A stretch of DNA of 64,000 nt from Octopus vulgaris (lineage: Eukaryota), in assembly GCA_951406725.2 (NCBI GenBank), contig OX597817.1, positions 36,146,001-36,210,000 of the forward strand, given 5' to 3'. The notes beneath the pieces were generated by a model. It saw nothing but the letters and a program-made list of their open reading frames with translations. It did no database searches and had not been told where the DNA came from. The stretch's first letter is position 1. Each line of letters begins with the position of its first letter. The position numbers were made by a program, and so were the translations under genes. Below are positions 45 to 51,631 of this stretch, piece after piece.

Positions 45-232
45 CTGAAAATCGTATTATAGGAATAGATTGCTCGTATGTATGTATGTATGTATGTATG
101 TATGTATGTATGTATGTATGTATGTATGTATGTATGTATGTATGTATGTATGTATGTATGTATGTATGTATATATATATGTATATATATATATATATATA
201 CGAGCAATCTATTCCTATAATACGATTTTCAG
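45..232. repeat. Perfect 34-bp inverted repeat enclosing a (TATG)n/(TA)n microsatellite
   Basis: ctgaaaatcgtattataggaatagattgctcgta (45-78) is the exact reverse complement of 199-232. Confidence 0.9.
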
Positions 233-664
233 CACCCCCCACACCCACCCACACACACACACGCACACACATATATATATATATATATGTATATATATAC
301 ATATATATATATGTGTGTATCTATATATATATAAGTATATATATGTAATATATATGTGTATATACATGTATATGTATGTGTATATGCATATATATGTGTG
401 TGTATACACACATGTATATATATATACATATGTATGTATATATACTATATGTATACACTATATGTATATACTATATATTCAAATATATATATATATACTA
501 TATATATACATGTATATACAGACATATATATATACATGTGTGTATATACCTATATATATACATATTTATATACATATACACATACCTATACATGTATACA
601 CACACGCACAGACATACACAGACACACACACATATATAACACACACACACATATTTATAGTTAA

Positions 665-1130
665 CAAATAGTTAACATCAAGAGGCGTGCCTCAAAGTTA
701 TCCATCGGTAAAAACATTTCGAAAATGTCGCCCTATATTGTAATGTTGTATTAGAGAGGTCCAACTTTATAGCATGCACAGCACTGAATTAAATTCAAAT
801 AGACCAAGAAGACGCAAACAGTGTAAAATCTTATGGCTCAACCTAACATAGTTAGGAAATTAAAACTAATAGATAACTACTTTCCACATTCACACAAATA
901 CCACAAGATCTTCAACAAAAATACTGTTATAGTAAGCTATAGTTGCCTCCCCAATATAAGGTCAATGATATTCAAACACCCACGAAAGACAATGCAATTG
1001 TAGATCCCCAAACCACTGTCCTCTAAACAACAATTGTCTCGAGGAAGAACTCGTATACGAGACCAAGATCACGAACTTTGTGGAACACTGTTGCCGAAGA
1101 AAAGATAAAATTGTACATCAGCAATCACTA
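665..1130 (+). pseudogene. Decayed Penelope-like element: RT C-terminus, linker and start of the GIY-YIG endonuclease
   Basis: Manual translation across frameshifts gives NIKRRASKLS..FENVALYCN..LERSNF, RRRKQCKILWLN, HKYHKIFNKNTVIVSYSCLPNI, CNCRSPNHCPLNNNCL..LVYE and KLYIS. These match the PLE motifs IIWFNPP, HKIFNRNTVK.SYSC.PN and CNCR....CPL...CL. Confidence 0.8.
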
Positions 1131-1841
1131 TGAACACTAGTGAAAGGAAACCAGGCAGACTTTGTCGAGCATACGTGTAGGCAGTTTCTTGAGAACACAA
1201 ACCCTTTTAAAAAGCTTCGTTTCTGGGATAACAGTGAATAAAGAAAGCATGGAGAAGATTCGTGAATGGGAGTTGAGTGTGTTCGATATGACATGACAAC
1301 GTACTTAATATAGACAACCAATGATATTTAATTAATCATAATTGTATCTGAACTGAAGAGAAAAAAGAATTATTATTTTTGATAATTCTGTATTTTCTTA
1401 AAATTCTAAAAGTACATCAGGAGCTGTAGAATATATACTTTTCTGATAGAAATTAAAGTATTATCGCCGCATAGGAATACTCAAGAGCACTTATGTGTGT
1501 GTATATGTGTGTGTGTGAAAGTTACAATTAGGAAGTTTAGGAATTTTGAGGAAAAGGAATGCAGTTTTAATATCTGAAAAGCAAAATCTAATAAAGGTCT
1601 TAATACATTTTAATATAAAGGATAATATCTATATTTCACTTATAAGCCTCTAATGTCATAACGTTCTAAATCATACGATTTTGTTTATAGGCTCTTAAAA
1701 AGAACCGGTAGATTGAACATCAATCACAAAAACACAGACAGAACCCCAGATACAAAAAGAAAAAAAAGACATTCTGAAAGAGTCAAGAATTTTCCAAACA
1801 ATATGGTTAGGTCTATTATGAATAACAGAGTTCTAGTTAAT

Positions 1842-2034
1842 ATTGGTTTCAAATTTTTGCTCTAAGCCAGCAATTTCGGAGAAGCGAGTAAGTCGTTTGA
1901 ATCAATCCCAGTGCTCAACTGGTATTTATTGACCCCGAAAGTATGAAAAGCAAAGTCCACCTCGGCGGAATTTGAACTCAGAACCTAAAGACGGACAAAA
2001 TGCCGCTAAACCGTGATGATCCTGCCACCACGCC
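1842..2034 (-). mobile_element. Older tRNA-derived SINE (family B) with 14-bp TSD
   Basis: Homologous to the family-B core; flanked by gagttctagttaat at 1828-1841 and 2035-2048. Confidence 0.8.
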
Positions 2035-2169
2035 GAGTTCTAGTTAATGTCATAATAAGAAATAACCTTAATTCATTTGACTAATTAAAATACTAATTTA
2101 AATAATTATCAAAGCTTAGAAAACTCTTTATGAGCAATACATTGATAAAAATATTAAAATACTTATATG

Positions 2170-2483
2170 TTTCTTTATTACCCACAAGGGGCTAAACATA
2201 GAGGGGACAAACAAAGACAAACAAAGGGATTAAGTCGATTACATCGACCCCACTGCGTAACTGGTACTTAATTTATCGACCCCGAAAGGATGAAAGGCAA
2301 AGTCGACCTCGGCGGAATTTGAACTCAGAATGTAACGGCAGACGAAATACAGCTACGCATTTCGCCCGGCGTGCTAACGGTTCTGCCAGCTCGCCGCCCT
2401 TTAAAGACAGACGAAATACCTATTTCTTTACTACCCACAAGGGGCTAAACACAGAGGGGACAAACAAGGACAGACAAACGGAT
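2170..2483 (-). mobile_element. tRNA-derived SINE family B with an extra partial tail
   Basis: Minus strand reads gcgagctggcagaaccgttagcacgccgggcg..gagttcaaattccgccgaggtcgactttgcctttcatcctttcggggtcgataaattaagtaccag; near-identical to copies at 21.8, 36.8 and 60 kb. Confidence 0.9.
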
Positions 2484-48845: not shown

Positions 48846-49215
48846 GTGTGTGTATTGTGAGTATGTATGTGTTAGTGCATGTGTACATCAGTCGCTTTGA
48901 TGACATTGTAAATGATGTTTTTAAGTATAAAAGAAATCACCACTTTTCCTTTAAATACATGATTCCTACACAGAACAAAGCACTACTTTAAATTGTTTAC
49001 CAGTTTAAATTAGTCTATAATTTTCTATCCATGATGGTCACTTAATTACGCAAAATGGCTTTGTGTGTGCGTAGTTTTGGAGTATGTAGGTGTTTATCAA
49101 TCGCTTTGATAAAATATTTCGTTTGATGAAACATTGTAAACAATATTTTTAAGAAAACACATCGCTATTTAGTCTGAACTACCTAATTCCCATAAAAAAT
49201 AAAATAAAAACAAAT

Positions 49216-49465
49216 ACGCCCTTTTTGAAGCCTAGCCAGGCTCATGGGTCCGGTTTTCCGGTTTCTATGGAGTATGTGTTCCCCAGCTGGACGGGACGCC
49301 AGTCCATCGCAGCGTTACTCATTTTTGCCAGCTGAGTGTGGACTGGAGCAACGTGAAATGAAGTGTTTTGCTCAAGAAGACAACGCGTCGCCCGGTCCAG
49401 GAATCGAAACCATAATCTTACGATCATGATGCTGACACCCTAACCACTAAGCCACGCGCCTCCAC
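49216..49465 (-). mobile_element. tRNA-derived SINE (head 2 + tail Y)
   Basis: Head shared with 33146; tail gcgatggactggcgtcccgtccag..gaaaccgg..atgagcc. Confidence 0.88.
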
Positions 49466-50009
49466 TCATAATAAAGTACTACTACAAAAATTTAACAGTT
49501 CGCCGTTTAAATTAGTCCATAACGTTTTACACTTGTTGACCGTTTATCTATGTTAAATGAGTCAAGAAAAGGTTGCAAGACGCAACGAAAATTTTAGGAA
49601 AATTGAAATAAGAAACAAGTGGAAATTTTACCGGTGAGTGTGTTACATTATAAGGCACAAAAAGAAAATGACTCTTCCCAGACACAACAGAATATGCTTC
49701 AACACACGAACTCATATAAAGAATCTTGCAAACCAAATCCAAAAACGAAATATTTTAAATGAGATTTTGGCGTATTCATACGCTCAAGTTTGACGATTAA
49801 TATGTACAATACATTTTGAGCACTTATGCATCGTATGAGTTTTACTTTGCCTACACTTTGGTGTATAAATACATGTTCACATCATACGCACATACGTCGA
49901 TTTATTATTACATAATGAATACTATCTAAAGTAAGAATACACACGCCTAAACAAACTCGCACACATGCGTAACCAGTGTAGAACTAGTAATAATAGCATT
50001 GAAAGAATA

Positions 50010-50215
50010 AGGCAGAAACGTTAGCACGCCGGGTGAAATGCTTAGCGTTATTTCGTCTGGTTTTACGTTCTGAGTTCAAATTCCGCCGGGGTCGACTTTG
50101 CCTTTCATTCTATTCGGGTCGATAAATTAAATACCAGTTGCGTACTTGCGTCAATCTAATCGAATGGCCCCCTTTCCCGCAAAATTTCGGACCTTGTGCC
50201 TAGAATAGAAATGAA
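50010..50215 (+). mobile_element. SINE family B with an alternative tail
   Basis: ggcagaaacgttagcacgccggg..gagttcaaattccgcc..gtcgactttgcctttcat. Confidence 0.85.
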
Positions 50216-50616
50216 TAACATTGACAGAATAGCAACAACATGCATACACGCTCTTGCACGGGGACATCCAACCAATTGACATACGCACATACTGTGTGTG
50301 CGTTTCTCTCTCTACCTCTCTCTAAGCGTATACATATGTGTGTATGTGCGTATATGCACATACCTGCACATATATGTATGTGCATATATATATATATATA
50401 TATATATATATATATATATATATATATATATATATATATATATACGTATACAGAAGAGTCTAGTCTAATCCATAGGCAGGAGAGGTGCAGCCGGAGTGTA
50501 GAAAGTCCTAAAGAGAATCCGTAAAGGGTAGAAAGGTAGAAGTCTAGTGGAGAAGTTCGTGGGTGATGAGAGGAGAGAGGATCGACTGGTGCGACCACGT
50601 GAGCGTGTGATATATG

Positions 50617-50857
50617 GGGAGAATTAAAAAAAAACACGAAAGACAAAGACATGTGGTGTAGAAAACAAACAGATGTAATAGTATAACGCTCTGGAATTGA
50701 AAAGTATTTAACGTTTCGAGCCTACGCTCTTCTACGCTCTGTAGAAGAGCGTAGGCTCGAAACGTTAAAGACTTTTCAAAACCCGAGCGTTATACTAATA
50801 CATCTGTTTGTTTTCTACACCATCTGTCTTCGTCTTTTGTTTTTTGTGAATTCTCCC
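50617..50857. repeat. Palindrome (arms of about 118 bp, 5-nt loop) with a hammerhead-like motif; 3' end re-copied at about 50940-50996
   Basis: tttaacgtttcgagcctacgctcttctac-gctct-gtagaagagcgtaggctcgaaacgttaaa at the centre; followed by (TA)n. Confidence 0.9.
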
Positions 50858-51631
50858 TATATATATATATATATATATATATATATATATATATATATAT
50901 ATATACACATACACATATATATATATATATATATATATGTGTGTTTGTTTTCTACACCATCTGTCTTCATTTTTTGTTTTTTGTGAATTCTCCCTATATA
51001 TATATATATATATATCATTATGCGTAGCGAAACACAAACATACTTTTATATAAATCATTATATAATTGCCTCTCTATTAATTTCCTGACCAATCATTTAA
51101 TTACATGCTTACAAGATATAAGTAACAGTAGCAGTGGTCGTGGGGATGGGCGTAGTAGGGATGGCGAAACAAATCTGCATTTTGAGTTCAGATTGAGTTC
51201 AACGAAAGGTCAACGTTGCCTTTCGTCCTTTCAGGTTCGATAAAATGAAATATCAATGAAGTATTGGAGTCGATGTGATCGACTTGGTCATCGAAAAGTA
51301 AAATAAATTGAAAGGAAAAAGGAAATGGCTGGCCTTGTGTCTATACTGGAAACATTTTACTATTATAATAGCGTCTGCCTGATGGTTAATTTTAATGTTA
51401 AATTTGTTTGTTTGGACATATTTACACCCAATGAAACAGAATGTGAATTTCATTATATTTGGGTCTGGGTGTAGACCAGGCGTCGCCGAAGGGGATCCGA
51501 GTGACCCCCTAGCGGTTGTCAAGGTATTATAAGGGGTCGATGATAGCCAAGGTGTCGAATGAGGGTCAGCGTGCGAAAGAACAACTCATCAGATGAACTT
51601 CTTGAAATACTTAGCACCATGCTCGTCCCCA

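What the first reader, a model, noticed from the sequence alone, without database searches (positions are those of the whole stretch)
45..50996. Recurrent system: unrelated fold-back elements, several with hammerheads, embedded in (TA)n microsatellites
Seen: at least seven inverted-repeat structures of unrelated sequence abut or enclose TA-rich tracts (45-232, 3830-4998, 15394-15496, 30153-30317, 30910-31160, 40532-40921, 50617-50857). Three have full or variant hammerhead folds and one has the CTGATGAAGGG half. A decayed Penelope RT/GIY-YIG lies at 665-1130. Inference: a diverse guild of non-autonomous, ribozyme-processed Penelope derivatives targets or generates TA tracts. At this density it would seed the genome with dsRNA hairpins and self-cleaving sites. 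The Penelope-hammerhead link is established; this microsatellite-linked palindromic form at such density may be poorly described.
Basis: partly seen in the sequence, partly recalled or inferred. Interest (0 to 1): 0.7.

Follow-up and report, generated by a model that had tools for sequence, protein, structure and literature searches.

The report
Penelope retroelement fold-back stubs in microsatellites
The seven hairpin-shaped DNAs are real but are a mix: three are clipped, mirror-image ends of Penelope-type jumping genes, two are non-coding repeats likely copied by the same enzymes, one is a small DNA transposon and one is likely a DNA-repair scar, so this is mostly a published pattern that is common across this genome.

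Summary
All seven inverted repeats exist, but they are not one guild. E5 (30910-31310), E6 (40493-40921) and E7 (50617-50857) are 5'-truncated 3' ends of autonomous Penelope-like elements (PLEs): E5 Hydra-type, E6 and E7 Neptune-type, each traced to an RT/GIY-YIG frame elsewhere in the genome. E2 and E4 belong to non-coding tandem families (about 730-860 and 490 bp) with PLE-type ends. E3 is a Tc1/mariner MITE. E1 is a 31-bp mirror copy of single-copy host DNA. Only E5 has a canonical hammerhead; E6 has the known U3-A8 variant; E7's is cut and variant; E2 has a half core. In 600 kb of random genome, 17 of 42 short fold-backs abut (TA)n (0.4 expected), only 4 of 42 hold a hammerhead, and the window's density is ordinary (P 0.11). 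Inverted 5'-truncated copies, a one-sided tail, (TA)n bias and opposite-strand hammerhead pairs are all published. Additions here: 30 of 31 head-to-head pairs have exactly one tail (40-150 nt), and the E5 family lacks the linker zinc finger proposed to drive TA targeting. This scan found the same system before on other DNA of this genome.

The parts
45..232 (.). E1: 31-bp single-copy host sequence (45-75) with a perfect mirror copy (202-232) across a (GTAT)n/(TA)n tract; likely fold-back repair scar, not a transposon
665..1130 (+). Decayed Hydra-type PLE fragment (thumb, CxCx5C-type linker, start of GIY-YIG); unrelated in DNA to the seven fold-backs
3830..4201 (-). E2 inverted, 5'-truncated arm; half core CTGATGAAGGG at 4067-4077
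4208..4998 (+). E2 one full unit (~770 bp) of a non-coding tandem family, with short terminal redundancy and tail; half core variant at 4771-4781
15394..15498 (.). E3: ~100-bp Tc1/mariner MITE, left TIR end lost; 16-nt inverted echo of the right TIR at 15519-15534
30076..30317 (.). E4: head-to-head insertion of a ~490-bp non-coding tandem family; tail 30076-30152; the family's hammerhead-like motif is cut off in this copy
30910..31310 (+). E5: head-to-head 3' end of a Hydra-type PLE; arms 30913-30966/31104-31157, tail about 31161-31310, (TA)n on both sides
31030..31114 (+). Canonical-core type I hammerhead (CUGAUGA, long helix II, self-complementary helix III, GUC site)
40493..40921 (.). E6: head-to-head 3' end of a Neptune-type PLE; arms 40532-40720/40733-40921, tail 40493-40531
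40829..40872 (+). U3-A8 variant minimal hammerhead; mirror copy at about 40581-40624 on the minus strand
   Evidence: variant described in PMC4209133
50445..50616 (-). 172-nt one-sided extension of E7 up to a TA tract; candidate tail, no second copy among the loci held
50617..50857 (.). E7: head-to-head 3' end of a second Neptune-type PLE; truncated A6U-variant hammerhead at about 50739-50772; a further 53-nt 3' piece at 50942-50994

Best explanation
Five of the seven fold-backs are head-to-head insertions with Penelope-type ends in (TA)n tracts, likely made when a Penelope RT-endonuclease cuts both strands of the tract and primes one cDNA from each end, at two fixed sites on the element RNA, before the two short cDNAs are joined. 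SHOWN: the 3' ends sit at two fixed positions per family, both followed by TA; the centres vary from copy to copy; nearly every pair has one short and one tailed end; E5, E6 and E7 run upstream into RT/GIY-YIG frames in longer copies; E2 and E4 run upstream into another copy of themselves. INFERRED: double-strand cutting and two-site priming (by analogy to the anole Poseidon in vitro data), end joining at 0-3 nt microhomology, and trans-mobilisation of E2 and E4 by a PLE enzyme. The hammerheads are passengers of the pseudo-LTR and survive only when truncation falls upstream of them. E3 is a mariner MITE and E1 is likely a fold-back repair scar at the microsatellite.
For: E6: 11 of 30 loci hold the same RT/EN frame at 85-100% identity; Pfam RVT_1 and GIY-YIG above cut-off; CX4CxxC linker. 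E5: 10 of 20 loci found with the upstream sequence hold a Hydra-like endonuclease in the same orientation, RT motifs in 3 of 5 longer fetches. E7: 2 of 30 loci hold RT and/or linker-finger/EN upstream in the same orientation. One-tail rule: E6 14 of 14, E5 16 of 17 distinct pairs, E4 17 of 18 with a tail-biased query. E6 junctions: 0-3 nt overlap in 8 of 12, 1-4 nt filler in 3, one outlier. TA enrichment 17 of 42 vs 0.40 expected. E5, E4, E2 and E7 copies sit inside the microsatellite linker of a SINE whose uninterrupted copies already carry (TA)4+ in 63 of 81 cases. Many different E5 fold-back joints occur in independent runs, so they are not assembly artefacts. Literature: PMC8557442 sections 6, 11, 15; PMC11167929; PMC4209133.
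Against: TA adjacency is not specific to PLEs here: SINE pairs show 5 of 28 vs 0.22 expected and the mariner TIR 5 of 25. E7 (1 of 3) and E2 (1 of 2) pairs do not show the one-tail rule, and E7's 172-nt extension has no second copy. No autonomous partner was identified for E2 or E4. Most random TA-abutting fold-backs were classed by anatomy only; none was firmly tied to a frame (output partly cut). Searches return the best 40 candidates, so samples lean to young or long copies. No unbroken E5 frame in 5 fetches.
Confidence: 0.85

Rival explanations
1. The fold-backs are a dedicated guild of non-autonomous palindromic elements that are cut out by their hammerheads and propagate as palindromes.
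For: E2 and E4 are non-coding tandem families: 10 of 25 E2 loci reach far enough upstream and all 10 read into the family's own tail region, 4 with a second arm end; E4 period about 490 bp; 12 of 20 E4 loci match a hammerhead-like pattern.
Against: Centres differ in every copy; most family copies are not palindromic; E5-E7 lead into coding frames; only 4 of 42 random fold-backs hold a motif; a read-through hairpin would pair the E6 ribozyme with its own antisense copy (inference).
Confidence: 0.07
2. The palindromes arise after insertion by fold-back repair or template switching at fragile (TA)n tracts next to an ordinary truncated PLE end.
For: E1 shows that fold-back duplication of flanking DNA occurs at a microsatellite in this window; short templated inverted duplications at breaks are reported in yeast (PMC11724301, listing and abstract start only).
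Against: E1-type events are rare (1 of 1039 microsatellite blocks); a post-insertion copy would duplicate the same end, whereas 30 of 31 pairs have two different fixed ends.
Confidence: 0.05
3. All seven are TIR DNA transposons (MITEs) with TA target duplications.
For: True for E3: fixed length, TIR 21-mer with 840 exact matches and 0 control matches, mariner HTH directly inside the same TIR in 1 of 25 loci.
Against: E2 and E4-E7 have variable length, asymmetric ends, tandem copies and RT frames or self-tandems upstream.
Confidence: 0.03

Closest known systems
Endonuclease-positive Penelope-like elements, Neptune type (PMC8557442: passages, sections 6, 11, 15)
   Same: E6 and E7: RT, CX2-5CxxC linker finger, C-terminal GIY-YIG, hammerhead in the pseudo-LTR, inverted 5'-truncated copy, tail at one end, microsatellite bias.
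   Different: Clade assigned by motifs, no tree built. E6 tail about 39 nt fits the published 30-40 bp; E7 tail unconfirmed.
Hydra-clade PLEs, including Hydra-1_Obim of Octopus bimaculoides (PMC8557442 section 11 and supplement search hits)
   Same: E5 family and the 665-1130 remnant family: Hydra-like RT motifs, no CCHH, CxxC and CxxH near the end of the endonuclease, canonical hammerhead, (TA)n insertion.
   Different: E5 is a different family (different hammerhead and protein by eye), has a ~150-nt tail, and its linker is a ~130-residue Asn-rich tract without the CxCx5C finger.
Poseidon PAc of Anolis carolinensis in vitro (PMC11167929, parts 1-2 of 4)
   Same: Two fixed RT start sites that define the tail; cuts both strands of AT-rich DNA; hammerhead cleavage not needed for insertion.
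   Different: The parts read do not address inverted pairs or show that the two sites are used one per end.
Minimal hammerheads of PLE pseudo-LTRs (PMC4209133, parts 1-2 of 4)
   Same: Self-complementary helix III, extra base at the start of helix II, U3-A8 variant, pairs 100-700 bp apart on opposite strands attributed to truncated PLEs.
   Different: A6U core of the E7 family and U.U in place of G10.1-C11.1 in the E4 family were not seen in the parts read.
Metazoan non-LTR retrozymes (PMC7229834 passages; bioRxiv 10.64898/2026.07.22.740005 part 1 of 5)
   Same: E4 family: non-coding tandem unit with one type I hammerhead-like motif per unit, PLE link.
   Different: Units are longer (490 and 730-860 bp vs about 300); E2 has only a half core; no RNA evidence here.
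Tc1/mariner MITEs
   Same: E3: short fixed length, TIRs, TA target duplication, TIR shared with a mariner transposase copy.
   Different: None of note.

Membership tests
EN+ Penelope-like element (E5, E6, E7 families) | RT plus C-terminal GIY-YIG frame contiguous with the repeat | tested here: met
   E6; E5; E7; E5 and E7 by motifs and tblastn, not Pfam
EN+ Penelope-like element (E5, E6, E7 families) | Inverted 5'-truncated copy with a tail at one end | tested here: met
   E6 14 of 14, E5 16 of 17; E7 only 1 of 3 and tail unconfirmed
EN+ Penelope-like element (E5, E6, E7 families) | Hammerhead motif in the pseudo-LTR | tested here: met
   canonical in E5, variants in E6 and E7
EN+ Penelope-like element (E5, E6, E7 families) | RT phylogeny placing the family in a clade | not tested
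   no tree built; clade names rest on motifs
Neptune type (E6, E7) | CX2-5CxxC linker finger | tested here: met
Hydra clade (E5) | No CCHH; CxxC and CxH near conserved E and N; (TA)n insertion | tested here: met
   against PMC8557442 section 11
Hydra clade (E5) | CxCX5C linker finger | tested here: not met
   absent in 7 of 7 copies whose open frame spans the linker, 3 aligned; so E5 is called Hydra-type, not filed in the clade
Non-LTR retrozyme (E4, E2 families) | Non-coding tandem units | tested here: met
Non-LTR retrozyme (E4, E2 families) | Complete type I hammerhead in each unit | tested here: inconclusive
   E4: 12 of 20 loci match, with a non-canonical helix II base; E2: not met, half core only
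Non-LTR retrozyme (E4, E2 families) | Self-cleavage and circular RNA | not testable with these tools
   needs bench assay or raw stranded RNA reads
Tc1/mariner MITE (E3) | Fixed length, TIRs, TA target duplication, TIR shared with a transposase copy | tested here: met
   (transposase inside the TIR in 1 of 25 loci)
Mobile element (E1) | Dispersed copies | tested here: not met
   2 hits, both its own arms; unbroken single contigs at depth 17-48 over the left arm and flank in 4 of 4 runs

The most novel reading that the evidence does not exclude
Penelope insertion is an obligately asymmetric two-ended reaction: a dimeric enzyme primes both ends of one cut at two different fixed RNA sites 40-150 nt apart, and it finds (TA)n without the linker zinc finger, since the young E5 family has an Asn-rich tract in place of that finger yet ends at TA in 25 of 29 ends. 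That would overturn the standing proposal that the linker finger drives microsatellite targeting.
Probability: 0.35. Interest if true: 0.55.

Novelty: new member of a known kind. Interest (0 to 1): 0.28.

Why it matters
The system as proposed is mostly published biology, and two of the seven members do not belong to it. What remains useful: a genome with roughly 80,000 such stubs (17 per 600 kb, rough extrapolation) gives a large natural record of PLE insertion, whose inverted forms and TA bias PMC8557442 lists as unexplained. The near-strict one-tail rule and the finger-less E5 family give two concrete tests of that mechanism. For annotation, these stubs look like MITEs or miRNA hairpins and are easy to mislabel.

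Tried and rejected
Rfam scan: the 150 listed of 324 matches were microsatellite-driven, nearly all miRNA models, all below gathering score; 174 not seen. The repeat finder was swamped by TA tracts. The E6 protein did not match the 665-1130 remnant and Pfam found nothing significant in its relatives; the identification rests on relatives' motifs and tblastn. A link of that remnant family to the pseudo-LTR downstream in L167 was rejected because a TA tract lies between them. A PLE hit upstream of E2 in L089 was rejected for the same reason. No PLE frame was found around 20 E4 loci. Naiad origin of the E2 half core was considered but no link was found. Expression: no RNA holder listed; contigs cannot show strand, ends or editing. 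E5 junction microhomology failed for a reference error in my script and was not repeated. Empty-site test was not run. Flank-inversion as a general class: 0 of 952 random blocks. Word search of earlier findings for the finger-less linker gave nothing; no paper search targeted that point, so it is not shown to be unpublished. Outputs were partly cut.
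Full report
Setting. The window is 36% GC with about 13% simple repeats and lies at G000:C4:36146001-36210000 in a 2.8-Gb genome that looks octopus-like (inference from protein resemblance to the Octopus entries and from earlier notes).

Observation. Six inverted repeats are recovered by self-BLAST after masking, and E3 is seen directly and through relatives. 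E2, E4, E5, E6 and E7 share no DNA similarity. My descriptor finds a canonical-core type I hammerhead only in E5 and a U3-A8 variant in both arms of E6. The E7 family has an A6U core, and the window copy is cut just upstream of it, so it lacks helix I. E2 has a half core with no GAAA in the family consensus. The E4 family has a hammerhead-like motif (12 of 20 loci) that the window copy has lost.

E6. The arm has 1440 first-look candidates, best copies 95-100% identical. 11 of 30 loci run upstream into one frame at 85-100% identity. Long copies show RT (Pfam RVT_1, E 5e-7), a CX4CxxC linker and GIY-YIG (E 1e-4). Inverted pairs span 390 to 4543 bp with a different centre each time. This is the 3' end of a Neptune-type PLE.

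E5. 1755 candidates, 98-100% identical at best. Searching with the upstream sequence gave 20 loci, 10 with a Hydra-like endonuclease in the same orientation; RT motifs appear in 3 of 5 longer fetches, none with an unbroken frame. The family has two 3' ends about 150 nt apart; 25 of 29 ends in those 20 loci reach TA at one of the two positions. The linker lacks the CxCx5C finger in 7 of 7 copies whose open frame spans it and holds an Asn-rich tract instead. PMC8557442 proposes that the linker finger mediates TA bias. Mobilisation in trans by another family is not excluded.

E7. 1649 candidates, 92-96% identical; 2 of 30 loci carry RT and/or linker-finger and endonuclease sequence upstream in the same orientation. 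Most copies are short single ends; 20 of 33 short ends have TA within 12 nt. The 172-nt left extension has no second copy among loci held.

E2 and E4. In 10 of 25 E2 loci that reach far enough, the upstream sequence is the family's own tail region, and 4 show a second arm end, giving a 730-860 bp tandem unit with an internal TA-like tract. E4 repeats with a period of about 490 bp. Neither showed a coding frame. Both have PLE-type ends; trans-mobilisation by a PLE is inferred.

E3. Relatives are about 100 bp, fixed in length, with TIRs and TA flanks. The TIR 21-mer has 840 exact matches and 0 reversed-control matches; most of the 25 loci taken are a ~250-bp MITE, one has a mariner HTH directly inside the TIR (E 1e-16), and 5 abut (TA)4+. 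It is a DNA-transposon derivative.

E1. The left arm and flank are single-copy (the tool skips very common words, but 4 of 4 runs give one unbroken contig there). One run also holds the right arm between TA and CA repeats on a different haplotype, so it is not an assembly artefact; the other three runs did not list it. Only 1 of 1039 microsatellite blocks has such a mirrored flank, 0 of 952 in the random sample. A fold-back repair scar is the likely origin (PMC11724301, listing and abstract start only); whether a PLE endonuclease made the break is unknown.

The 665-1130 remnant. It has 206 candidates at 68-78% identity; relatives show Hydra-like RT and CxCx5C linker motifs and match window 714-1073 at E 2e-10. 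It is real but is not the parent of any of the seven.

Genome-wide test. 60 random 10-kb stretches held 104 inverted repeats. Among 42 short ones not matching four window SINE queries, 17 have one end within 10 nt of (TA)5+ against 0.40 expected, none has both ends there, and 13 have the other end 30-200 nt away. SINE pairs are enriched too (5 of 28 vs 0.22). Only 4 of 42 hold a hammerhead-like motif; the sample has 21 motifs against 0-3 in 5 shuffles. The window's 4 against 1.8 expected gives P 0.11, so its density is ordinary.

Target or generate. Of 137 SINE copies with both halves, 11 rows are interrupted by an E family; four are clean insertions into the microsatellite linker (L101, L133, L072, L195), the rest have nested inserts or a duplicate row. 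63 of 81 uninterrupted random copies already have (TA)4+ there. This favours insertion into existing tracts. No empty allele was examined.

Mechanism. Distinct head-to-head pairs have exactly one tail in 14 of 14 (E6) and 16 of 17 (E5), 17 of 18 for E4 with a biased query, but 1 of 3 for E7 and 1 of 2 for E2. The binomial figure for 30 of 31 under independent ends is 1.5e-8. E6 centres mostly show 0-3 nt overlap. Independent runs hold many other E5 joints. With the in vitro finding of two RT start sites and cutting of both strands (PMC11167929), the likely reaction is one cut, two primers, two RNA start sites, then joining. This step is inferred.

Comparison. Inverted 5'-truncated copies, a one-sided 30-40 bp tail and (TA)n bias are in PMC8557442 (passages, sections 6, 11, 15, supplement search hits; long supplement sequences were cut). 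Opposite-strand hammerhead pairs and the U3-A8 core are in PMC4209133 (parts 1-2 of 4). Retrozymes: PMC7229834 (passages) and the 2026 preprint (part 1 of 5; supplements closed). PMC13282606 (part 1 of 3) lists 31 recently active Penelope-like families in Octopus vulgaris. Earlier notes of this scan report the same system in many windows; they are not independent support.

Verdict. Real, mixed, mostly known. Interest 0.28; new members of a known kind.

Noticed in passing
L240/L252, L243/L254, L246/L253 (E5 family frame): Hydra-type protein with two long Asn-rich tracts, one replacing the linker zinc finger, in a young family that still ends at (TA)n.
   Followed up: partly
window 15478-15534 and 50942-50994: Short end pieces of E3 (inverted) and E7 (direct) are repeated on the far side of the adjoining TA tract.
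   Followed up: no
   Followed up: partly
window 41416-42060 and 60569-61126: Two TIR elements; the second has a mariner HTH_48 frame at 60744-61229, the first abuts a TA tract.
   Followed up: partly
window 53571-56039 (minus): Open frame of about 780 aa with an RVT_1 domain (LINE-type), bounded by TA tracts on both sides.
   Followed up: partly
window 46597-47016: Pif1-helicase fragment, probably Helitron-derived (weak Pfam hit).
   Followed up: no
window 11765-12185, 36023-36397, 40995-41380, 52919-53309, 56425-56846: Abundant two-part SINE-like repeat with an internal TA/CA linker that serves as a landing site for PLE ends and other repeats.
   Followed up: partly
L061:2682-4300: A mariner transposase fragment and a second E6 fold-back are nested beside an E6 coding copy.
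   Followed up: no
window 18029-18477 and 43829-44551: Two further diverged inverted repeats far from TA tracts, unclassified.
   Followed up: no
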